Below are positions 3,010 to 7,955 of a DNA stretch of 64,000 nucleotides, piece after piece. The translations under genes and the position numbers were made by a program. Below the pieces are notes generated by a model, which did not search any database, was not told where the DNA came from, and worked only from the letters and a program-made list of their open reading frames with translations. The stretch lies in the sequence record KR014248, one strand, 5' to 3'. Source of the stretch: Escherichia phage vB_EcoM_AYO145A. Positions within the stretch are counted from its first letter, which is position 1; each line of letters opens with the position of its first letter.

Positions 3010-3086
3010 CTCTGTTTAGCTCAGCTTGGTAGAGCGTTCCGTTTGGGGCGGTAAGGCCGGAGGTTCAAGTCCTCCAACAGAGACCA
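3010..3086 (+). tRNA. tRNA-Pro (anticodon TGG)
   Basis: Cloverleaf folded by eye. Acceptor CTCTGTT/AACAGAG, D-stem GCTC/GAGC, anticodon loop TTTGGGG, T-arm GGAGGTTCAAGTCCTCC. CCA is encoded. Confidence 0.9.
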
Positions 3087-3093
3087 AATTAAT

Positions 3094-3171
3094 GTTCCAG
3101 TAGACAAAATGGTAAAGTCACCACTCTTTCAAAGTGGATATTTGAGGGTTCAAATCCCTTCTGGAACGCCA
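3094..3171 (+). tRNA. tRNA-Glu (TTC)
   Basis: Acceptor GTTCCAG/CTGGAAC, anticodon stem-loop CCACT-CTTTCAA-AGTGG, T-loop TTCAAAT. CCA is encoded. Confidence 0.88.
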
Positions 3172-3178
3172 GTTTTGA

Positions 3179-3251
3179 CAGAAGACCAATTACAGCAAAC
3201 TTAATCTTATTCATCTGACACGAAATCGGACAAAGAAGAGATTTGGTCTGG
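3179..3251 (+). ncRNA. Y-RNA-like small RNA YL1 (conserved-clamp family, no tRNA module)
   Basis: 5' CAGAAGACC (3179-3187) and 3' GGTCTGG (3245-3251). Helix AGACCAA/TTGGTCT, with the conserved 5' extension TTACAGCAAA. Lies between tRNA-Glu and tRNA(CAT), 7-11 nt from each. Confidence 0.55.
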
Positions 3252-3262
3252 TCATTAAGAAT

Positions 3263-3339
3263 TGCGGGTATAGAGAAAGGGCGTCTCACATGTCTCATTA
3301 GCATGGTATCGGCAGGTTCGACTCCTGCACCCGCCTCCA
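3263..3339 (+). tRNA. tRNA with CAT anticodon (Met or Ile2); acceptor register uncertain
   Basis: D-stem GAGA/TCTC, anticodon stem-loop CATGT-CTCATTA-GCATG, T-arm GCAGGTTCGACTCCTGC, 3' ACCCGCC-T-CCA. The best acceptor pairing leaves a 1:72 T-C mismatch. Confidence 0.75.
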
Positions 3340-3345
3340 ATTTTG

Positions 3346-3405
3346 CAGAAGACCGTATGCAGCAATAAACTACTTTTTGCGGATAAAAGAAAAAACACGG
3401 TCTGG
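3346..3405 (+). ncRNA. Y-RNA-like small RNA YL2
   Basis: 5' CAGAAGACC (3346-3354) and 3' GGTCTGG (3399-3405). Helix AGACCGT/ACGGTCT covaries relative to YL1. Motif TGCAGCAA. Lies between tRNA(CAT) and tRNA-Asn. Confidence 0.55.
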
Positions 3406-3416
3406 CAATGTATTAA

Positions 3417-3493
3417 GGTTAGGAAGCACATAAGGTATGTGCGGTCGCCTGTTAAGCGAATGGCACAGGGTTCGAATCCCTGACTAACCGCCA
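3417..3493 (+). tRNA. tRNA-Asn (GTT)
   Basis: Acceptor GGTTAGG/ACTAACC (7:66 mismatch), D-stem GCAC/GTGC, anticodon loop CTGTTAA, T-arm CAGGGTTCGAATCCCTG. CCA is encoded. Confidence 0.85.
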
Positions 3494-3502
3494 AATTTAA
3501 AT

Positions 3503-3590
3503 GTGTCGTTATCCCGTAGATGGTAGCGGTGGGGACTGTAAATCCCTTGTCATTGAGACTCGGTAGGTTCGACTCCTACACGGCACACCA
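3503..3590 (+). tRNA. tRNA-Tyr (GTA), type II
   Basis: Acceptor GTGTCGT/ACGGCAC, anticodon stem-loop GGGGA-CTGTAAA-TCCCT, long variable arm, T-arm GTAGGTTCGACTCCTAC. CCA is encoded. Confidence 0.88.
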
Positions 3591-3596
3591 AATAAA

Positions 3597-3674
3597 GGTT
3601 ATGTAGTTTAATCTGGTTAAAATACTCCCCTGTCACGGGAGATGATGAGGGTTCAAATCCCTTCGTAACCGCCA
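3597..3674 (+). tRNA. tRNA-Asp (GTC)
   Basis: Acceptor GGTTATG/CGTAACC, anticodon stem-loop CTCCC-CTGTCAC-GGGAG, T-arm GAGGGTTCAAATCCCTT. CCA is encoded. Confidence 0.88.
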
Positions 3675-3728
3675 AATTATAATAAGTATTCCAAGATGAT
3701 GTTTTGAGAGGGCTATTTAGCCCCTCCC

Positions 3729-3756
3729 TTAAAGAGTTCTTACGAGTATTCTTTAA
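3729..3756 (+). repeat. conserved-loop hairpin H1 (family of 3-4 in the tRNA array)
   Basis: Stem TTAAAGA/TCTTTAA, loop GTTCTTACGAGTAT. Ends 5 nt before YL3. Confidence 0.6.
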
Positions 3757-3761
3757 AGGAG

Positions 3762-3838
3762 CAGAAGACCAAATTCAGCAAGTACGTATGATATTTTCAA
3801 GCCAATTTAATTTTGAAAAAATTTAAAACTTGGTCTGG
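3762..3838 (+). ncRNA. Y-RNA-like small RNA YL3
   Basis: 5' CAGAAGACC (3762-3770) and 3' GGTCTGG (3832-3838). Helix AGACCAA/TTGGTCT, motif TTCAGCAA, internal hairpin TTTTCAA/TTGAAAA. Confidence 0.55.
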
Positions 3839-3851
3839 CTCAACAAATTTA

Positions 3852-3983
3852 CAGAAGACCGTTTACAGCAAAACTTAAACAATCTATTTCTCCGGTAAAG
3901 AAAAGGCGAAGGTTCGATTCCTTCACTCGGCAGATGTCGAGTTGGTGTAATGGTAGCACTTAAGATGATAAACAACGGTCTGG
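3852..3983 (+). ncRNA. Y-RNA-like small RNA YL4 with a circularly permuted tRNA-like module (YrlA-like architecture)
   Basis: Clamp CAGAAGACC (3852-3860) and GGTCTGG (3977-3983). Helix AGACCGTT/AACGGTCT, then CTTAA (3874-78)/TTAAG (3960-64). T-arm GAAGG-TTCGATT-CCTTC (3908-24). Acceptor 3' strand ACTCGGC (3925-31), 4-nt AGAT link, acceptor 5' strand GTCGAGT (3936-42). D-arm GTGT-AATGGTA-GCAC (3945-59). Confidence 0.65.
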
Positions 3984-3984
3984 T

Positions 3985-4128
3985 AATTATCTTTGTAGAT
4001 AAGTTATTAAGCTTACCTGTGAGTATGCGACCACAAAGGGTGAAAGGGTAAATTCTAGATTTAAACCCAACAAGGCACATCGCTACAGACCTTAAGCAAG
4101 TCTGGGTAGCTTATCTACAAAGATAATT
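3985..4128 (+). ncRNA. structured element closed by a 19-bp perfect stem
   Basis: AATTATCTTTGTAGATAAG (3985-4003) pairs perfectly with CTTATCTACAAAGATAATT (4110-4128). The interior contains hairpin GCTACAGAC-CTTAAGCAA-GTCTGGGTAGC, which echoes the YL clamp. Confidence 0.45.
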
Positions 4129-4133
4129 TTAAT

Positions 4134-4209
4134 GGAAGTGTAGCAGAATGGTGATGCGGCAGACTTTTAATCTGACAGGCGATGGGTTCGAATCCCTCCA
4201 CTTCTACCA
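4134..4209 (+). tRNA. tRNA-Lys (TTT)
   Basis: Acceptor GGAAGTG/CACTTCT, anticodon loop CTTTTAA, T-loop TTCGAAT with an irregular T-stem (GATGGG/CCCTCC). CCA is encoded. Confidence 0.8.
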
Positions 4210-4213
4210 ATAT

Positions 4214-4290
4214 GGTTCAGTCGCAGATAAGGTAATGCAGGGGTCTCATAAGCCCTATGAATGTGGGTTCGATTCCCATCTGAACCTCCA
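4214..4290 (+). tRNA. tRNA with CAT anticodon (Met or Ile2)
   Basis: Acceptor GGTTCAG/CTGAACC, anticodon stem-loop GGGGT-CTCATAA-GCCCT, T-arm GTGGGTTCGATTCCCAT. CCA is encoded. Confidence 0.85.
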
Positions 4291-4291
4291 A

Positions 4292-4367
4292 GCTGGTATA
4301 GTTAAGAAGGTTATAACACTCCCCTGATAAGGGAACATCGGTGGTTCGATTCCACCTACCAGTACCA
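4292..4367 (+). tRNA. tRNA-Ile (GAT)
   Basis: Acceptor GCTGGTA/TACCAGT, anticodon loop CTGATAA, T-arm GGTGGTTCGATTCCACC. CCA is encoded. Confidence 0.88.
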
Positions 4368-4382
4368 ATTTCAATAAAGTTG

Positions 4383-4411
4383 TTGACATTGAGATGTGAC
4401 TACTTTATAGT
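4383..4411 (+). promoter_or_regulatory. consensus-like internal promoter within the tRNA array
   Basis: TTGACA at 4383-4388, a 17-nt spacer, TATAGT at 4406-4411. Confidence 0.7.
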
Positions 4412-4577
4412 AACCTTAGTTTTCGTTGCGTAGCGTCTATTTTGCAAATTTAAAATAAATGCAAACGACAATGTTTTTCTGGCAGTAGCTTGATAGGCTA
4501 AACACCAGTGAGGTCTTCCAATCCCTCATCAAAGAATTTGGCGTACTCGCCCACGGTATGATTAATAAGGTGGGCAT

Positions 4578-4608
4578 CTTTAAGGGCTTTCTAAGAGAGT
4601 CTTTAAAG
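4578..4608 (+). repeat. conserved-loop hairpin H2
   Basis: Stem CTTTAAGGG/TCTTTAAAG (with G-T wobbles), loop CTTTCTAAGAGAG. Ends 7 nt before the atypical tRNA(TCT). Confidence 0.55.
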
Positions 4609-4615
4609 ATAATTA

Positions 4616-4697
4616 CGGGGCGTATCTCAGCGGTCTTCTAAACCGCCGTTAACCGAGTAAGTGGAGTATGCGGGTTCGAGTCCTGCCGCCTCGACCA
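4616..4697 (+). tRNA. atypical tRNA-like gene, anticodon TCT (Arg), no recognisable D-arm
   Basis: Acceptor CGGGGCG/CGCCTCG, perfect anticodon stem-loop GCGGT-CTTCTAA-ACCGC, T-arm GCGGGTTCGAGTCCTGC. CCA is encoded. Only 7 nt lie between the acceptor and anticodon stems, and the variable region is 23 nt. Confidence 0.5.
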
Positions 4698-4839
4698 AAT
4701 AGTTAGCAGATTACTTAGACGGTCTTAGCGGGTCTTCCTGTAGGGAGGTGGTCTGTATCTCATGTTTTCCAGAACATGTAAATAATCTGAGAAGGGGCTT
4801 TACAGTGTTGAGATAATACGGTAAGCTTCGAATTATAGT

Positions 4840-4922
4840 GTGGGACGATGTTAAGACTCTAAGGCATGAGCAACGGCTTCCAACACCGTTTCAAAGGGGT
4901 TCAACTCCTCCGTCCCATGCCA
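4840..4922 (+). tRNA. atypical tRNA-like gene, best read as tRNA-Trp (CCA)
   Basis: Acceptor GTGGGAC/GTCCCAT, discriminator G, CCA, T-loop TTCAACT. The anticodon region reads either ACGGC-TTCCAAC-ACCGT (CCA, C31-A39 mismatch) or AACGG plus a 9-nt loop. The D region is oversized. Trp is otherwise the only amino acid missing from the array. Confidence 0.5.
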
Positions 4923-4935
4923 AAGTCTTATTAGG

Positions 4936-5023
4936 GGTAGGTAGCGGCTAATGGTAGCCAAACTGTCTTGAAAACAGTTGCCACTGTAGAGATACGGTGA
5001 GGGTTCGACTCCTTTACTTACCG
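4936..5023 (+). tRNA. tRNA-Ser (TGA), type II
   Basis: Acceptor GGTAGGT/ACTTACC, anticodon stem-loop ACTGT-CTTGAAA-ACAGT, long variable arm, T-loop TTCGACT. CCA is not encoded (the sequence is GCCT). Confidence 0.85.
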
Positions 5024-5280
5024 CCTAATAAGATTTAAAGCCAAGCTTCATTCGGATGTTGCTTTGGTATACCGCGTGTATTGTTGTACGCACTGATAAA
5101 GCACCTAGTAGGTGTCACGGAGAAGAGATAATATCAAGCTCTCCAAAGGTTCTAGTCACCGGATTAAACAAGACTATGCAAAGACCTTTTTAGGTCTTTT
5201 TAGAGGGCTTCTAAGGTTATTACAGCTTGTTGTGGAACCTTGTTGCTTAGGTTCTTAGAAGTTCTCTAAAAAGACTTAAT

Positions 5281-5358
5281 GGGAGATTGACGGTAATTGG
5301 TAAACCTATCTCGCTTAGAACGAGATGTTTGAGGGTTCGAATCCCTTGTCTCCTACCA
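5281..5358 (+). tRNA. tRNA with TAG anticodon (Leu), short variable region
   Basis: Acceptor GGGAGAT/GTCTCCT, anticodon stem-loop TCTCG-CTTAGAA-CGAGA, T-arm GAGGGTTCGAATCCCTT, A73, CCA. At 78 nt it lacks a type II long arm. Confidence 0.75.
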
Positions 5359-5365
5359 AATTAAT

Positions 5366-5441
5366 GCAGGTGTAGCAAAATGGTTATGCGGCTGACTCTT
5401 AATCAGTAAGACGATGGGTTCAATTCCCTCCACCTGTACCA
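5366..5441 (+). tRNA. tRNA-Lys (CTT)
   Basis: Acceptor GCAGGTG/CACCTGT, anticodon loop CTCTTAA, T-loop TTCAATT. CCA is encoded. Paralogous to the Lys(TTT) gene. Confidence 0.82.
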
Positions 5442-5447
5442 AACAAT

Positions 5448-5523
5448 GGGGATGTAGTTTACATGGTTAAAACATAAGTTTTGCAAACTTAAGTACAGGG
5501 TTCAATTCCCTGCTTCTCCACCA
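5448..5523 (+). tRNA. tRNA-Ala (TGC)
   Basis: Acceptor GGGGATG/CTTCTCC with a G3:T70 wobble (Ala identity pair), anticodon stem-loop TAAGT-TTTGCAA-ACTTA, T-arm CAGGGTTCAATTCCCTG. CCA is encoded. Confidence 0.85.
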
Positions 5524-5529
5524 ATTAGT

Positions 5530-5604
5530 GCATCCATAGTTTAAACGGGAAAATTACAGTCTTCCAAACTGAGGTTGAGGGTTCGATTCCCTCTGGATGC
5601 TCCA
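5530..5604 (+). tRNA. tRNA-Gly (TCC)
   Basis: Acceptor GCATCCA/TGGATGC, anticodon loop CTTCCAA, T-arm GAGGGTTCGATTCCCTC. CCA is encoded. Confidence 0.88.
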
Positions 5605-5610
5605 AACAAT

Positions 5611-5687
5611 GCTGCTTTCGTATAATTGGCTATTACACATCCCTTGTAAGGATGGAAATGCAGGTTCGAGTCCTGTGAGCAGCACCA
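5611..5687 (+). tRNA. tRNA-Thr (TGT)
   Basis: Acceptor GCTGCTT/GAGCAGC, anticodon stem-loop CATCC-CTTGTAA-GGATG, T-arm GCAGGTTCGAGTCCTGT. CCA is encoded. Confidence 0.88.
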
Positions 5688-5690
5688 ATT

Positions 5691-5779
5691 CAGAGGTCAA
5701 GTGAAAGACCGCTTTGAGTCAACTGAAGACCGTAACAAATTCCACGGAGTTGAGTTAGCGGCACAACTCCAGACCTCTT
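5691..5779 (+). ncRNA. structured spacer element between tRNA-Thr and tRNA-Val
   Basis: Outer stem AGAGGTC (5692-98)/GACCTCT (5772-78), inner hairpin GGAGTTG/CAACTCC. Contains CTGAAGACCGT, which resembles the YL 5' motif. Confidence 0.35.
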
Positions 5780-5783
5780 TCAT

Positions 5784-5858
5784 ACTCGCTTAGTTTATAT
5801 GGTAAAACATCACCCTTACAAGATGAAGAAAAAGGTTCAAGCCCTTTAGTGAGTACCA
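5784..5858 (+). tRNA. tRNA-Val (TAC)
   Basis: Acceptor ACTCGCT/AGTGAGT, D-stem GTTT/AAAC, anticodon loop CTTACAA, T-arm AAAGGTTCAAGCCCTTT. CCA is encoded. Confidence 0.85.
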
Positions 5859-5859
5859 T

Positions 5860-5937
5860 GTTCCAGTATCCCAATTGGCAGAGGATGCAAGCTCAAACCT
5901 TGTATTAGTGACGGTTCGAATCCGTCTTGGAACACCA
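5860..5937 (+). tRNA. tRNA with CAA anticodon (Leu), short variable region
   Basis: Acceptor GTTCCAG/TTGGAAC, Leu-like D-loop CCAATTGGCAGAGG, anticodon stem-loop GCAAG-CTCAAAC-CTTGT, T-arm GACGGTTCGAATCCGTC, A73, CCA. 78 nt. Confidence 0.78.
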
Positions 5938-5942
5938 ATTTT

Positions 5943-6018
5943 GCAGGATTAGTTCAAATGGAAAGAGCAACAGTCTACGAAGCTGTTAATAGGGGTTCGA
6001 ATCCCTTATCCTGCGCCA
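5943..6018 (+). tRNA. tRNA-Arg (ACG)
   Basis: Acceptor GCAGGAT/ATCCTGC, D-stem GTTC/GAGC, anticodon stem-loop ACAGT-CTACGAA-GCTGT, T-arm AGGGGTTCGAATCCCTT. CCA is encoded. Confidence 0.88.
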
Positions 6019-6037
6019 ATTTAAAGAGGCTATTTAG

Positions 6038-6595
6038 ATGAGATATTTGAAGTATGCTTCATGGATTTTCTTAGCTTTGTTAGAGCCATTTGCAGCAATC
6101 TTAGCAGTTATCTTAGCACCTTTCGTAGTTCCATTCTACAGTGAGAAGAAAGGCCACTTACCTTTCGGATTTAGATGGATGGAGACCTATGACAACCCGA
6201 TTGATGGTGATGAAGGCCACGTTAAAAGATGGGCTAAGATTAGAAAGATTGGTAAGCTCGGTGTTTATATGCAGAGAGTTGGATGGCTCTGGAGAAACAA
6301 AGCTTATAACTTCTCTTACCATGTATTAGGAAGAGATGTAAAAGATGTTACTAAGTGGAAAGGTAATATCAACGTAAGTTCTAACCCTGAAGATAATCAG
6401 ACAGGTTATCTCCTAATGTGGAACAGTAATGCTTGGGGATTATTTGCTTTTATCCCATCTATTAAAGTCTTTGGTAAACAATTCTACTGGAGAATTTATG
6501 TTGGGTGGAAACTAAAAAGTGTTGTCCCAGAAGAAAGAGCATTCTCAAGGGAAAGAGTTATGTTGGCATTCTTTATTCATCCACTAAGAAAATAA
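6038..6595 (+). CDS. hypothetical membrane protein embedded in the tRNA array
   Basis: 185-aa ORF with AAAGAGG RBS. The N-terminus is hydrophobic (WIFLALLEPFAAILAVILAPFVVPF). Confidence 0.7.
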   Translation: MRYLKYASWIFLALLEPFAAILAVILAPFVVPFYSEKKGHLPFGFRWMETYDNPIDGDEGHVKRWAKIRKIGKLGVYMQRVGWLWRNKAYNFSYHVLGRDVKDVTKWKGNINVSSNPEDNQTGYLLMWNSNAWGLFAFIPSIKVFGKQFYWRIYVGWKLKSVVPEERAFSRERVMLAFFIHPLRK

Positions 6596-6603
6596 AGATT
6601 TAA

Positions 6604-6679
6604 AGGGGATTAGTTTACAAGGTTAAAACCTCGGTCTTTGAAATCGAAGAAGTTGGTTCAATTCCAACATCCCCCGCCA
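6604..6679 (+). tRNA. tRNA-Gln (TTG)
   Basis: Acceptor AGGGGAT/ATCCCCC (1:72 A-C mismatch), anticodon stem-loop TCGGT-CTTTGAA-ATCGA, T-arm GTTGGTTCAATTCCAAC. CCA is encoded. Confidence 0.82.
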
Positions 6680-6681
6680 AT

Positions 6682-6760
6682 GCTCCATTACTCCAATTGG
6701 CAGAGAGGCCAGACTTAAAATCTGTGTTATGTATCGGTTCGAATCCGATATGGAGTACCA
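6682..6760 (+). tRNA. tRNA with TAA anticodon (Leu), short variable region
   Basis: Acceptor GCTCCAT/ATGGAGT, D-loop CCAATTGGCAGAG, anticodon loop CTTAAAA, T-arm ATCGGTTCGAATCCGAT, A73, CCA. 79 nt. Confidence 0.78.
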
Positions 6761-6765
6761 AATTT

Positions 6766-6841
6766 AGCGGTATAGCATAACTGGCAATGCAACAGTCTCT
6801 GAAGCTGTCCTATTAAGGTTCAAATCCTTATGCCGCTGCCA
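6766..6841 (+). tRNA. tRNA-Gln (CTG)
   Basis: Acceptor AGCGGTA/TGCCGCT, D-stem GCAT/ATGC, anticodon stem-loop ACAGT-CTCTGAA-GCTGT, T-arm TAAGGTTCAAATCCTTA. CCA is encoded. Confidence 0.85.
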
Positions 6842-6845
6842 CTTC

Positions 6846-6869
6846 TAAGGGTTCTTACGAGAGTCCTTA
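6846..6869 (+). repeat. conserved-loop hairpin H3
   Basis: Stem TAAGGG/TCCTTA covaries with H1. Loop TTCTTACGAGAG. Ends 3 nt before tRNA-His. Confidence 0.6.
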
Positions 6870-6872
6870 AAT

Positions 6873-6948
6873 GTGGCCTTATCATAAAAGGTAATGACCC
6901 ATGCTGTGAACATGGTCTATACGGGTTCAAATCCCGTAGGTCACCCCA
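6873..6948 (+). tRNA. tRNA-His (GTG)
   Basis: Acceptor GTGGCCT/AGGTCAC, anticodon stem-loop CCATG-CTGTGAA-CATGG, T-arm ACGGGTTCAAATCCCGT, C73, CCA. Confidence 0.88.
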
Positions 6949-6954
6949 ATTTAT

Positions 6955-7030
6955 AGTCCAAGTAGCTTATATGGTTAAAGCGCGTGTCTGAAAAACATGA
7001 GAAGAGGGTTCAAATCCCACTGGACTACCA
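6955..7030 (+). tRNA. tRNA-Phe (GAA); acceptor-stem register ambiguous
   Basis: D-stem GCTT/AAGC, anticodon stem-loop CGTGT-CTGAAAA-ACATG, T-loop TTCAAAT. A perfect 7-bp pairing TAGTCCA/TGGACTA leaves no discriminator before CCA, and other registers leave a bulge. Confidence 0.75.
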
Positions 7031-7046
7031 ATTTCAAAGGTGCTTA

Positions 7047-7781
7047 ATGAAAGAGATGACAGAACAAGGTAAGGAGATTTTTAATCTCTTAAAAACCGGT
7101 AAAGGGTTCTCTAACCCGCTTATTACTGGTGCAGCAGTTCTCGGTGGAACCGTAGCTGCTTCTACATCACTTGTAAGCTCTATTAGTTCTGTAACAGACC
7201 CTACAATGAAGGAGAAACTTGTTGCTGCTGGACTTACAACAGTCCTTTTAAACAGCTTTACAACAAGCCTTACAAGCACTACAGCAACTACTAAGACCCT
7301 AACAGACTACGGTCAAAAGTCTATTGATGAGTTTTCATCACGTATGCAGGTAGCAAAGGGATACTCCAATGTTATGGGTGCAGTAGGAGAACAAGTTGGT
7401 TGTACACCATTCAGTGGTATTATGGGTGTTGCTACAGAGTATGGTCAAAAAGCTATTGACACAATTAACAGTGCACTAGACGGTGTTAATGATGTATTAA
7501 GTGACTTACAAGATGCTATTGATAAAGGTCTTGATACTGTTTCTGATTTAGCTAACCAAGCTGTTAGTAAGATTAATGAAGGTATCTCAAAGATTACAGC
7601 TTATGCAGATGAAGTTGTGCAGATGATTGAAGAAGAAGCTGCCCTTATTGCAGAGTACCTTAAAACAAATATCAATGGGTTCTTAGCAGGTATCTTACCA
7701 GACTGGTTTGATGATGCTTGTAAAACTGGTGTGATTGATACTATTGCAACACCAGAAATGAAGAACGCATTACAGAAATAA
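7047..7781 (+). CDS. hypothetical Ser/Thr-rich coiled-coil protein embedded in the tRNA array
   Basis: Track ORF 6984..7781 trimmed to ATG 7047, because the upstream part overlaps tRNA-Phe. AAAGGTG RBS. Confidence 0.65.
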   Translation: MKEMTEQGKEIFNLLKTGKGFSNPLITGAAVLGGTVAASTSLVSSISSVTDPTMKEKLVAAGLTTVLLNSFTTSLTSTTATTKTLTDYGQKSIDEFSSRMQVAKGYSNVMGAVGEQVGCTPFSGIMGVATEYGQKAIDTINSALDGVNDVLSDLQDAIDKGLDTVSDLANQAVSKINEGISKITAYADEVVQMIEEEAALIAEYLKTNINGFLAGILPDWFDDACKTGVIDTIATPEMKNALQK

Positions 7782-7782
7782 T

Positions 7783-7875
7783 GGAAGATTAACCCTAAAA
7801 GGTAAGGGAGCAGTTTGCTAAACTGCCAGTAGCTGAGAAATCGGTGTACCAGTTCAAGTCTGGTATCTTCCTCCA
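7783..7875 (+). tRNA. tRNA-Ser (GCT), type II
   Basis: Acceptor GGAAGAT/ATCTTCC, anticodon stem-loop GCAGT-TTGCTAA-ACTGC, 21-nt variable arm, T-arm ACCAGTTCAAGTCTGGT. CCA is encoded. Starts 2 nt after the stop of CDS 7047..7781. Confidence 0.88.
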
Positions 7876-7879
7876 ATTT

Positions 7880-7955
7880 GAATCCGTGACAGAAATGGCT
7901 ATGTGCCTGTCTGCAAAACAGGTTTATAAGGGTTCGAGTCCCTTCGGATTCTCCA
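7880..7955 (+). tRNA. tRNA-Cys (GCA)
   Basis: Acceptor GAATCCG/CGGATTC, anticodon stem-loop CCTGT-CTGCAAA-ACAGG, T-arm AAGGGTTCGAGTCCCTT. CCA is encoded. Confidence 0.9.

What the first reader, a model, noticed from the sequence alone, without database searches (positions are those of the whole stretch)
4840..4922. Atypical tRNA whose anticodon region reads either Trp (CCA, with a C-A mismatch) or a 9-nt loop containing UCC
The acceptor, the T-loop and G73-CCA are normal. The D region is about 7 nt too long.

The anticodon stem can be drawn in two ways:
- ACGGC/ACCGT with the loop TTCCAAC, giving anticodon CCA.
- AACGG/CCGTT with a 9-nt loop.

Trp is the only amino acid not otherwise represented among the 26 other genes, which favours the Trp reading. 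Expanded anticodon loops are associated with frameshift suppression, so the alternative is worth excluding.
Basis: partly seen in the sequence, partly recalled or inferred. Interest (0 to 1): 0.5.

Follow-up and report, generated by a model that had tools for sequence, protein, structure and literature searches.

The report
Hidden non-canonical tryptophan tRNA gene
Felix O1-like phages are reported to carry tRNAs for every amino acid except tryptophan, but they do carry a conserved tryptophan tRNA gene that standard tools miss because about six or seven extra bases sit between its acceptor stem and D arm.

Summary
Window 4840-4922 (+) is a single-copy, 83-nt tRNA-shaped gene in the tRNA array of a Felixounavirus.

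ARAGORN and Rfam's tRNA model do not call it. Published tRNAscan-SE annotations of relatives that carry it also lack it.

Across 17 distinct variants from 53 loci, 98.7% of proposed pairs form and 9 pairs show compensatory double changes. RNAalifold predicts the same fold on its own:
- an 8-bp acceptor stem (or 7 bp plus an A·C);
- an invariant 9-nt connector, AUGUUAAGA, where tRNAs normally have 2 nt;
- a 3-bp D stem with a GG-containing loop;
- a 5-bp anticodon stem closing a 9-nt loop, which is the same as the 7-nt loop UUCCAAC closed by a never-pairing C31·A39;
- a UUCNANU T loop, then G73-CCA.

CCA lies at the centre of both loop drawings. Deleting 6 connector bases in silico makes ARAGORN call tRNA-Trp(cca).

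Felix-, Moogle- and Susp-like phages and Arno162 have this element and no canonical Trp gene. Kolesnikvirus relatives have a canonical tRNA-Trp with the same anticodon arm and lack the element.

Best reading: a functional, structurally non-canonical tRNA-Trp. Frameshift or UGA decoding has no support. Expression and charging are untested.

The parts
4840..4847 (+). Acceptor stem, 5' strand (GUGGGACG). Positions 1-7 are the classical stem. G8 can form an eighth pair with C4911.
   Evidence: Pairs 1-72 (A-U, G.U, G-C) and 2-71 (U-A, C-G) covary. The G8-C pair is invariant, so covariation cannot test it, but RNAalifold predicts it.
4848..4856 (+). Extra-long connector AUGUUAAGA between the acceptor stem and the D stem. 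It is 9 nt where canonical tRNAs have 2.
   Evidence: It is invariant in all 17 variants, including Pectobacterium phage Arno162 and metagenomic L054. Deleting any 6-nt block within element positions 9-19 restores an ARAGORN tRNA-Trp call.
4857..4870 (+). D arm: a 3-bp stem CUC/GAG closing the 8-nt loop UAAGGCAU, which carries the invariant GG (G18 and G19 equivalents).
   Evidence: Compensatory variants are CAC/GUG, CAU/GUG (Arno162, with a U.G wobble) and CGU/ACG. The alternative E. coli-like stem GUU/AGC is broken in Moogle and Arno162.
4872..4890 (+). Anticodon arm: 5-bp stem AACGG/CCGUU closing the 9-nt loop CUUCCAACA. This equals the 7-nt loop UUCCAAC closed by the non-pairing C31 and A39. 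The anticodon CCA lies at 4880-4882.
   Evidence: Four of the five stem pairs show double changes. UCCAA is invariant. Positions 31 and 39 are C.A or C.C in every variant, whereas all 25 canonical tRNAs of the window have a standard 31-39 pair.
4891..4895 (+). Variable region UCAAA (5 nt).
   Evidence: It is invariant in all variants.
4896..4910 (+). T arm: 4-bp stem GGGG/CCUC with the 7-nt loop UUCAACU. It becomes 5 'pairs' if A4895 and C4911 are counted as a mismatch.
   Evidence: The outermost of the four T-stem pairs (A1 columns 59-73) covaries between G-C and U-A in Moogle-type variants. U54, U55, C56 and A58 equivalents are invariant.
4911..4922 (+). Acceptor stem 3' strand CGUCCCAU, discriminator G (4919) and encoded CCA (4920-4922).
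   Evidence: G73 and CCA are invariant. 24 of the window's 25 other tRNAs also encode CCA.
4383..4411 (+). Context: a near-consensus sigma-70-type promoter (TTGACA-17-TATAGT) that probably drives the sub-cluster containing the element. This is an inference.
   Evidence: It matches 11 of 12 consensus positions, and no terminator-like site lies between 4360 and 5300. The same promoter is annotated in phage ASO1A.

Best explanation
Window 4840-4922 is a functional but structurally non-canonical tRNA-Trp(CCA) gene. It is conserved in Felixounavirus, Mooglevirus, Suspvirus and Arno162-like Ounavirinae.

Proposed mechanism:
1. It is transcribed within the tRNA array, probably from the promoter at 4383-4411, and is cut out by RNase P and 3' processing like its neighbours.
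2. It folds into a cloverleaf whose acceptor/T branch keeps the normal 12 stacked pairs (8+4, or 7+5 with an A.C).
3. Its D loop (GG) and T loop (UUCNA) can make the usual elbow contacts.
4. Its identity elements for TrpRS are intact: anticodon CCA, G73, and A1-U72 or G1.U72.
5. It supplies Trp-tRNA for UGG codons during infection. The host has only one tRNA-Trp gene.

Two features set it apart. The first is an invariant 9-nt connector, AUGUUAAGA, in place of U8-A9, together with a 3-bp D stem. The second is a never-pairing 31/39, which is inherited from the Ounavirinae tRNA-Trp lineage.

What is shown: the sequence, the fold with covariation, the conservation, the distribution, and why detectors fail. 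What is inferred: transcription, processing, charging with Trp and use on the ribosome.
For: Detection:
- ARAGORN and Rfam RF00005 do not call it.
- A model built from relatives finds one copy at 110.5 bits.

Structure:
- RNAalifold independently gives the proposed fold.
- On 17 distinct variants from 53 loci, 98.7% of cells pair, 9 pairs have double changes, 0 of 500 shuffles reach this, and the slid controls give at most 1.

Functional nucleotides:
- U33, C34, C35, A36, A37, G18, G19, U54, U55, C56, A58, G73 and CCA are all invariant.

Homology to tRNA-Trp:
- The anticodon arm is identical over 15 nt to the canonical tRNA-Trp of phiEa21-4.
- The loop CUCCAAA equals the loop of E. coli tRNA-Trp, which is single-copy in 5,426 genomes.

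Distribution:
- The window, Arno162 and Sf14 have the element and no canonical Trp gene.
- Kolesnikvirus phages have a canonical tRNA-Trp and no element.
- With the element counted, the window's array covers all 20 amino acids.

Why detectors fail:
- Deleting 6 connector bases in silico yields a default ARAGORN call of a 77-nt tRNA-Trp(cca).

Position in the array:
- It ends 13 nt before tRNA-Ser and encodes CCA, as 24 of the 25 other tRNAs do.
Against: - There are no expression, processing or aminoacylation data. I found no transcriptome study of these phages.
- No known functional elongator tRNA has a 9-nt acceptor-to-D connector. A review of non-canonical tRNAs lists none. Tolerance by EF-Tu, TrpRS and the ribosome is therefore assumed.
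- Canonical core contacts such as U8-A14 cannot be mapped.
- The T stem has only 4 Watson-Crick or wobble pairs, and the D stem has only 3.
- Four of the 17 variants carry a broken pair: REP8 (G.A in the acceptor stem), the SP-012 type (U.U in the T stem), L042 (T stem) and L054 (two acceptor mismatches). Constraint is therefore not absolute.
- The window allele has C38. From my own knowledge, this removes the A36-A37-A38 determinant for i6A37 modification.
Confidence: 0.68

Rival explanations
1. It is a tRNA-shaped RNA that is selected for but does not decode. It could be a decoy or sponge for a host factor such as a tRNA-Trp-directed nuclease, TrpRS or a modification enzyme. It could also be a processing or punctuation signal in the polycistronic tRNA transcript. 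The invariant single-stranded connector would be the binding site for its partner.
For: - The connector AUGUUAAGA and the variable region UCAAA are more conserved than the stems. That pattern is typical of a binding or tertiary-contact surface.
- The core departs from every reviewed class of translating tRNA.
- The same tRNA array holds other non-decoding-looking tRNA-like RNAs.
Against: - The anticodon, U33, A37, G73, CCA, the 12-pair acceptor/T branch and the elbow nucleotides are all kept. A decoy would not need the full set.
- Its distribution is complementary to a canonical tRNA-Trp.
- No partner sequence for the connector appears in the window: 12 matches against 7.5 +/- 2.9 expected.
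Confidence: 0.15
2. It is a tRNA-Trp with altered decoding. The open 31/39, which gives an effective 9-nt loop, and the remodelled D arm would cause +1 frameshifting or misreading of UGA. The precedent for UGA misreading is the D-arm Hirsh suppressor of E. coli tRNA-Trp (from my own knowledge).
For: - Positions 31 and 39 never pair in any variant, although every other stem position has turned over.
- The D arm is the region where tRNA-Trp mutations are known to change decoding (from my own knowledge).
Against: - The same 31/39 mismatch is present in otherwise canonical Kolesnikvirus tRNA-Trp genes and in an unrelated Vibrio phage tRNA-Trp.
- The loop has no extra anticodon base. CCA stays central, with U33 and A37 in place.
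- Stop-codon usage is ordinary (TAA 45, TGA 12, TAG 6), and no TGA-terminated ORF has an in-frame extension of 40 codons or more.
Confidence: 0.06
3. It is a decaying tRNA-Trp pseudogene, disabled by an insertion in the D region and retained only by linkage.
For: - Standard detectors reject it.
- A few variants carry stem mismatches.
Against: - Compensatory changes occur in all four stems across genera.
- The inserted segment itself is invariant at 77% overall divergence.
- It is retained in 234 phage records.
- No intact Trp gene replaces it.
Confidence: 0.04
4. It is a selenocysteine-type tRNA, as the only Rfam match suggests.
For: RF01852 aligns 4839-4919 at 22.4 bits (E = 0.037 in a 376-nt search). 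The alignment has an 8-bp acceptor stem and a 4-bp T stem.
Against: - The score is far below the gathering threshold of 47.
- The anticodon is CCA, not UCA.
- There is no long variable arm.
- The D arm is 3 bp with an 8-nt loop, not 6 bp with a 4-nt loop.
Confidence: 0.01

Closest known systems
Canonical tRNA-Trp(CCA) of Kolesnikvirus Ounavirinae (Erwinia phages phiEa21-4 and FIfi106) and of the host (E. coli trpT)
   Same: - Anticodon CCA, U33, A37, G73 and A1-U72.
- The anticodon arm CGGC-CUCCAAA-ACCG is identical to that of phiEa21-4, including C31.A39.
- The loop equals the E. coli loop.
- It has a class I 5-nt variable loop and lies in the phage tRNA array.
   Different: - The canonical genes are 76 nt. 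They have U8-A9, a 4-bp D stem and 7/5 acceptor/T stems, and ARAGORN and annotators call them.
- The element is 83 nt. It has a 9-nt connector, a 3-bp D stem and a likely 8/4 branch, and no tool calls it.
- It occupies a different slot in the array: before tRNA-Ser(UGA), not between Gly and Thr.
(8/4) tRNAs and allo-tRNAs (Mukai et al. 2017, PMC5389517)
   Same: - The acceptor/T branch has 12 pairs split as 8+4 instead of 7+5.
- Such tRNAs have been reported in phage tRNA clusters.
   Different: - The reported species are Ser, His, Cys and Sec types. The allo-tRNAs have a long variable arm and a Sec-like D arm with a long stem and a tetraloop.
- No Trp species and no extended connector are described.
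- Here the eighth pair is invariant and therefore unproven.
tRNA-Sec (Rfam RF01852)
   Same: It has a longer acceptor stem and an enlarged D region. It is the only Rfam model that aligns the element.
   Different: The match scores 22.4 bits against a threshold of 47. The anticodon is CCA, there is no long variable arm, the D arm has a different architecture, and the branch has 12 pairs, not 13.
Phage tRNAs with anticodon-loop changes proposed to evade host anticodon nucleases (van den Berg et al. 2023, PMC10264068)
   Same: It is a phage-encoded tRNA whose anticodon stem-loop differs from the host isoacceptor at positions flanking the anticodon: 31, 32, 38 and 39.
   Different: That paper does not discuss a Trp case or a tRNA-Trp-directed nuclease ('Trp' does not occur in its main text), and I know of none in enterobacteria. 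It also does not address D-region insertions.
+1 frameshift-suppressor tRNAs (8-nt anticodon loops; from my own knowledge)
   Same: The anticodon loop is formally larger than 7 nt.
   Different: Suppressors carry an extra base in or next to the anticodon. Here the loop is enlarged only because positions 31 and 39 do not pair. The seven central bases are a normal Trp loop.

Membership tests
Canonical elongator tRNA (Rfam RF00005 / ARAGORN cloverleaf) | Score at or above the family threshold, or a call by a standard detector | tested here: not met
   There is no ARAGORN call. RF00005 gives no hit at E<=10, and the best clan match is tRNA-Sec at 22.4 bits. tRNAscan-SE-based annotations of Sf14, which carries the element, do not list it.
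Canonical elongator tRNA (Rfam RF00005 / ARAGORN cloverleaf) | 7-bp acceptor stem, discriminator base and 3' CCA | tested here: met
   The stem is supported by covariation at pairs 1-72 and 2-71. G73 and CCA are invariant.
Canonical elongator tRNA (Rfam RF00005 / ARAGORN cloverleaf) | Two unpaired bases (8 and 9) between the acceptor stem and the D stem | tested here: not met
   There are 9 nt (AUGUUAAGA) after an 8-bp stem, or 10 nt after a 7-bp stem. The two-base rule is quoted from PMC7609411.
Canonical elongator tRNA (Rfam RF00005 / ARAGORN cloverleaf) | D arm of 3-5 bp with G18 and G19 in the loop | tested here: met
   The stem is 3 bp and covaries (CUC/GAG, CAC/GUG, CGU/ACG). The GG is invariant.
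Canonical elongator tRNA (Rfam RF00005 / ARAGORN cloverleaf) | 5-bp anticodon stem closing a 7-nt loop with U33 and a purine at 37 | tested here: inconclusive
   U33 and A37 are present. However, the five covarying pairs close a 9-nt loop. The 7-nt loop exists only if the non-pairing C31 and A39 stack as a closing layer.
Canonical elongator tRNA (Rfam RF00005 / ARAGORN cloverleaf) | 5-bp T stem with a UUCRANY loop | tested here: inconclusive
   The loop is canonical. The stem has 4 standard pairs plus an invariant A.C. The alternative is an 8/4 split.
tRNA-Trp isoacceptor (substrate of bacterial TrpRS) | Anticodon CCA and discriminator G73 (the major identity elements; from my own knowledge) | tested here: met
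   Both are invariant in all 17 variants. E. coli tRNA-Trp has the same.
tRNA-Trp isoacceptor (substrate of bacterial TrpRS) | A1-U72 first pair (a minor identity element; from my own knowledge) | tested here: inconclusive
   The pair is A-U in 11 variants, G.U in 4 (including the window) and G-C in 2.
tRNA-Trp isoacceptor (substrate of bacterial TrpRS) | Aminoacylation with tryptophan and decoding of UGG | not testable with these tools
   This needs in vitro charging, acid-gel Northern blots or tRNA sequencing.
tRNA-Sec (RF01852) | Gathering score, UCA anticodon, long variable arm, and a 6-bp D stem with a 4-nt loop | tested here: not met
   The score is 22.4 bits against 47. The anticodon is CCA, the variable region is 5 nt, and the D stem is 3 bp with an 8-nt loop.
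(8/4) tRNAs / allo-tRNA (Mukai et al. 2017) | 12-pair acceptor/T branch split 8+4 | tested here: inconclusive
   RNAalifold and the Sec model both draw 8/4. G8, its partner C and A49 are all invariant, so covariation cannot decide between 8/4 and 7/5 with an A.C.
(8/4) tRNAs / allo-tRNA (Mukai et al. 2017) | Long variable arm and a Sec-like D arm (for allo-tRNA proper) | tested here: not met
   The variable region is 5 nt and the D loop is 8 nt.
+1 frameshift-suppressor tRNA | 8-nt anticodon loop with an extra base in or next to the anticodon | tested here: not met
   The loop is 9 nt, or 7 nt plus a mismatch. It has a normal YUCCAAM core, which canonical Kolesnikvirus tRNA-Trp genes share.
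tRNA pseudogene | Loss of structural constraint, with uncompensated substitutions | tested here: not met
   98.7% of cells pair and 9 pairs have compensatory double changes.

The most novel reading that the evidence does not exclude
The element is the first member of a new structural class of translating tRNA. It would be an elongator tRNA with an invariant 9-nt acceptor-to-D connector, possibly forming a small pseudoknot with the D loop (AUG with CAU, UGU or UAU). The remodelled core and open 31/39 would have been selected because they make the phage's tRNA-Trp unrecognisable to a host tRNA-Trp-directed defence. Alternatively, they could make it dependent on a phage factor or give it altered decoding, such as UGA misreading.
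Probability: 0.15. Interest if true: 0.75.

Novelty: new variant of a known kind. Interest (0 to 1): 0.55.

Why it matters
- It corrects the published picture. [quoted passage not shown] With this gene they probably carry a full set of 20. That changes analyses of codon usage and tRNA adaptation for a widely used group of therapeutic and typing phages.
- If the RNA is charged and used, it shows that the bacterial translation machinery accepts a tRNA with a 9-nt connector in place of U8-A9. That would widen the known structural range of natural tRNAs and offer a scaffold for tRNA engineering.
- It shows that gaps in phage tRNA arrays can hide conserved non-canonical RNAs that standard detectors miss. 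This window contains at least three more.

Tried and rejected
- **ARAGORN with relaxed thresholds.** It gave only spurious calls: a "tRNA-Pyl", 4-base anticodons, and a tRNA-Trp with a 55-nt "intron". It was not informative.
- **Rfam tRNA-Sec hit.** Rejected as a membership claim, because the score is below threshold and the defining features are absent.
- **Degenerate pattern scans.** L028 and L029 from the viral contigs and L060 (Fusobacterium) from the genomes were chance matches with no tRNA-like fold. The family was found only in Ounavirinae-like contigs.
- **E. coli-like D stem GUU/AGC.** Rejected because it is broken in Moogle and Arno162, whereas CUC/GAG covaries.
- **Connector-to-D-loop pairing (AUG with CAU, UGU or UAU).** It is compatible in all 17 variants, but only through one-sided changes. 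I kept it as a weak possibility, not a result.
- **Partner or extra copies of GATGTTAAGA in the window.** There is no enrichment.
- **Programmed UGA read-through.** Stop usage is ordinary and there are no extension candidates.
- **Expression data.** Literature searches found no transcriptome study of these phages. I also found no prior description of the element.
- **Stretch (b) at 4616-4697 as the tRNA-like domain of the neighbouring tmRNA-like RNA.** Doubtful, because it sits in the slot where most relatives have a canonical tRNA-Arg(UCU), and it shares that gene's anticodon arm.

Full report
**What the window is.** A 1-kb stretch around the finding is 99.3% identical to Escherichia phage humlepung and matches 264 phage records, nearly all of them Felix O1-like (Felixounavirus). 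The finding lies inside the phage's tRNA array at 3010-7955. ARAGORN tRNAs there for 19 amino acids, and none of them is Trp.

**Checking the observation.** The sequence at 4840-4922 is GUGGGACGAUGUUAAGACUCUAAGGCAUGAGCAACGGCUUCCAACACCGUUUCAAAGGGGUUCAACUCCUCCGUCCCAUGCCA.
- ARAGORN does not call it.
- Rfam's tRNA model gives no hit even at E<=10.
- In a narrow scan the only match is tRNA-Sec at 22.4 bits, well under its threshold of 47.
- Rfam adds one further tRNA-like hit at 4616-4694 (31.7 bits).

**Is it real?** The element is present in 234 phage records. In the 60 records sampled across the ranking it is never annotated as a tRNA. These include Mooglevirus, Suspvirus and, at 77% identity, the Pectobacterium phages Arno162 and Wc4-1.

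I collected copies from annotated phages, IMG/VR and metagenomes. This gave 53 loci and 17 distinct sequences. RNAalifold on 12 variants predicted, independently, the fold I had drawn by eye. On the 17 variants:
- 98.7% of cells form standard pairs;
- 9 pairs show changes on both sides (32 cells);
- none of 500 shuffles reaches these values;
- sliding the partners by 1-3 columns gives at most 1 such pair.

Every stem has compensatory changes:
- acceptor pair 1-72: A-U, G.U, G-C;
- acceptor pair 2-71: U-A, C-G;
- D stem: CUC/GAG, CAC/GUG, CGU/ACG;
- anticodon stem: AACGG/CCGUU, GACGG/CCGUU, GUAGG/CCUAC, GUAAG/CUUAC, ACUUG/CAAGU;
- the outermost of the four T-stem pairs: G-C, U-A.

A covariance model built from the family finds exactly one copy in the window (110.5 bits). 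All other hits are ordinary tRNAs at 37 bits or less, aligned with a 7-nt deletion in the connector. The element is therefore a structured RNA under purifying selection. It is neither a chance cloverleaf nor a pseudogene.

**Anatomy.** The supported secondary structure is as follows.
- An acceptor stem of 8 bp. The eighth pair, G8-C, is invariant and therefore untested. The alternative is 7 bp plus an A.C mismatch at the base of a 5-"pair" T stem.
- A 9-nt connector, AUGUUAAGA.
- A 3-bp D stem with an 8-nt loop containing GG.
- One unpaired base, then a 5-bp anticodon stem closing the 9-nt loop C-Y-U-C-C-A-A-M-M.
- A 5-nt variable region, UCAAA.
- A 4-bp T stem with a UUCNANU loop.
- G73 and CCA.

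From position 27 to the 3' end the molecule has exactly the canonical 50 nt. All the excess length is in the 5' third.

The invariant bases are the connector, the variable region, UCCAA in the anticodon loop, GG in the D loop, UUC and A58 in the T loop, G73 and CCA.

Position 31 is always C and position 39 is A or C, so they never pair, and CCA is central in either drawing. None of the window's 25 canonical tRNAs has a non-standard 31-39 pair.

**Why the tools miss it.** I deleted every block of 4-10 nt between element positions 7 and 33 in silico. Five deletions, all of 6 nt and all within positions 9-19, made ARAGORN at default settings call a 77-nt tRNA-Trp(cca). The extra connector bases are thus the only obstacle to detection. 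The rest satisfies a standard tRNA-Trp cloverleaf.

**Evidence that it is the phage's tRNA-Trp.**
1. With this element the array covers all 20 amino acids.
2. The distribution is complementary.
   - The window, Arno162 and the metagenomic contig L054 carry the element and show no canonical Trp gene. For Arno162 this covers its whole annotated tRNA cluster, 24 tRNAs for 19 amino acids.
   - Erwinia Kolesnikvirus phages, which are also Ounavirinae, carry a canonical 76-nt tRNA-Trp(cca). The model finds no copy of the element in them.
   - Close relatives of that canonical gene occur only in Kolesnikvirus-type genomes, not in Felix-, Moogle- or Susp-like phages.
3. The anticodon arm of the common allele, CGGC-CUCCAAA-ACCG, is identical to that of phiEa21-4's canonical tRNA-Trp, including C31.A39. 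FIfi106 has C31.C39. The loop CUCCAAA equals that of E. coli tRNA-Trp, whose sequence I verified as the annotated tRNA-Trp in all 5,426 complete E. coli genomes, with a median of one copy.

The open 31/39 is therefore an ancestral trait of this tRNA-Trp lineage and is not linked to the odd D region. An unrelated Vibrio phage tRNA-Trp also has an A.C there.

From my own knowledge, anticodon CCA and G73 are the main TrpRS identity elements, with A1-U72 a minor one. A1-U72 is present in 11 of 17 variants and is G.U in the window.

**Context and expression (inferred).** A near-consensus promoter, TTGACA-17-TATAGT, lies at 4383-4411. No terminator-like site lies between 4360 and 5300. The same promoter is annotated in phage ASO1A. 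The element ends 13 nt before tRNA-Ser and encodes CCA, like 24 of the 25 other tRNAs. Small ORFs overlapping it (37 aa or less) are not credible. I found no transcriptome or tRNA-sequencing data for these phages.

**Alternatives.**
- *Pseudogene.* Covariation and the invariance of the inserted segment itself argue strongly against it.
- *tRNA-Sec.* It fails on score, anticodon, variable arm and D arm.
- *Frameshift suppression or UGA misreading.* Computation cannot exclude these, but they have no support. The loop has no extra anticodon base. The 31/39 mismatch is shared with canonical relatives. Stop usage is ordinary (TAA 45, TGA 12, TAG 6) and no TGA-terminated ORF has a long in-frame extension.
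- *A non-decoding role (decoy, regulator or processing signal).* This is the most serious rival, because no reviewed class of translating tRNA has such a connector and the single-stranded connector is the most conserved part. Against it, the element retains the full set of decoding and charging features, and its distribution is complementary to a canonical tRNA-Trp.
- *Connector-to-D-loop contact.* A pairing of AUG with CAU, UGU or UAU is compatible in every variant, but only one-sided changes support it.

**Comparison with what is known.** The closest relatives are the canonical tRNA-Trp genes of Kolesnikvirus phages and of the host. Structurally, the nearest described class is the (8/4) tRNAs of Mukai et al. 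(PMC5389517). These occur in some phage tRNA clusters, but as Ser or His species and without an extended connector.

The literature treats these phages as lacking a Trp tRNA:
- Felix O1: 22 tRNAs, none Trp (PMC3185647).
- Sf14: 26 tRNAs for 19 amino acids by tRNAscan-SE 2.0 (PMC12482277).

Sf14's RefSeq record lists tRNAs "predicted by tRNAscan-SE" on both sides of the element but not the element itself, which my model finds there at 109.4 bits. I found no prior description.

**Verdict.** This is a new structural variant of a known kind: a conserved, unannotated, non-canonical tRNA-Trp gene.
- That it is a selected tRNA-shaped RNA: about 0.95.
- That it is charged with Trp and used in translation: about 0.68.
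- Interest: moderate (0.55). It fills a reported gap in a well-studied phage group and extends natural tRNA architecture, but its function is untested.

**Side observations.** The gaps in this tRNA array hold further conserved RNAs that no tool annotates. They are listed under Noticed in passing.
- The most striking is a tmRNA-tag-like RNA at about 4412-4612. Its tag frame (ANDNVFLAVA**) has no start codon and is conserved, with synonymous changes, in five unrelated phage groups. The RNA matches 593 phage records.
- The second is a tRNA-like element without a D arm at 4616-4697.
- The third is a cloverleaf that looks circularly permuted at about 3887-3960.

Noticed in passing
window 4412-4612 (+); tag frame 4461-4496; promoter 4383-4411: A tmRNA-like 'message' RNA lies directly downstream of the strong promoter. 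GCA AAC GAC AAT GTT TTT CTG GCA GTA GCT TGA TAG reads ANDNVFLAVA** (the E. coli tmRNA tag is ANDENYALAA; from my own knowledge). It has no start codon and is preceded by AUAAAU.

The frame is conserved, with synonymous changes, in the Erwinia phage FIfi106 (ANDAQFLAVA), Klebsiella phage Carvaje (ANEEMYLAVA), Serratia phage IME250 (ANDNTFLAVA) and Salmonella phage SP-076 (ANDDVVLMSA). The stretch matches 593 phage records from many families and is almost never annotated.

ARAGORN calls no tmRNA. Rfam's permuted-tmRNA model scores 22-29 bits in three phages against a threshold of 47. I could not find a tRNA-like domain joined to it, so how it would work is unexplained. A 2014 survey (PMC4131195) found ssrA only in mycobacteriophages and Bacillus phage G..
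   Followed up: partly
window 4616-4697 (+): A tRNA-like gene without a D arm (RF00005 31.7 bits; ARAGORN does not call it). Its features:
- acceptor stem CGGGGCG/CGCCUCG with G3.U70, then A73 and CCA (alanine-type identity features);
- an anticodon-like arm GCGGU-CUUCUAA-ACCGC (UCU);
- a 23-nt extra region;
- a normal T arm.

It sits exactly where most relatives have a canonical tRNA-Arg(UCU), so it is an alternative allele of that slot. REP8 shows a compensatory change in its stem. It matches 261 phage records at 83-100% identity, including jumbo phage 121Q and phi92/rV5-like phages. Those records annotate it variously as tRNA-OTHER, tRNA-Undet or tRNA-Leu, or not at all..
   Followed up: partly
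window 3887-3960 and 3985-4128 (+): This looks like a circularly permuted cloverleaf. In order, it has an anticodon-arm-like hairpin (UUUCU-CCGGUAA-AGAAA), a T arm (GAAGG-UUCGAUU-CCUUC), an acceptor-like stem capped by a tetraloop (ACUCGGC-AGAU-GUCGAGU), and a D-arm-like hairpin containing GG. A long, very stable stem structure of about 24 bp follows. For 3880-4133 the folding energy is -70 kcal/mol with z = -4.0. Rfam gives only a 22-bit partial tRNA hit at 3875-3925..
   Followed up: partly
L037 (Erwinia phage FIfi106) 3294-3462: An unannotated stretch of about 169 nt whose ends can pair as an acceptor stem (GGGUGAU / AUCACUC, then G-CCA). Its 5' end, GGGUGAUUCUG, resembles the 5' end of bacterial tmRNA (from my own knowledge), and it has a T arm just before the 3' strand. 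It lies immediately upstream of the promoter and the tag-like RNA in that phage. No clear counterpart exists in the window..
   Followed up: no
window 5186-5285 (+): Several plant microRNA-precursor models (MIR473 at 34.6 bits, plus MIR2606 and MIR1882) hit the gap between tRNA-Ser(UGA) and tRNA-Leu(UAG). These are surely not true family members, but they suggest a long hairpin there..
   Followed up: no
window 4368-4935 compared with relatives: Several relatives (Alf5, mio, heid, SP22, Michonne and others) have an HNH homing-endonuclease gene, or a 90-450-bp insertion, within or next to this interval of the tRNA array. The window has none, so the interval is a hotspot for insertion polymorphism.
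   Followed up: no
window 4936-5025 (+): tRNA-Ser(UGA), directly downstream of the element, is the only one of the 25 ARAGORN tRNAs that does not encode a 3' CCA. Its called 3' end reads CGCC, followed by UAA..
   Followed up: no
L037 (Erwinia phage FIfi106) 1540-1614: A tRNA-sized match to my model (24.3 bits) lies between the annotated tRNA-Pro and tRNA-Ala. It is neither annotated nor called by ARAGORN, and it could be another missed tRNA. No tRNA-Glu or tRNA-Cys is annotated in the 7.1-kb stretch of that phage that I looked at..
   Followed up: no
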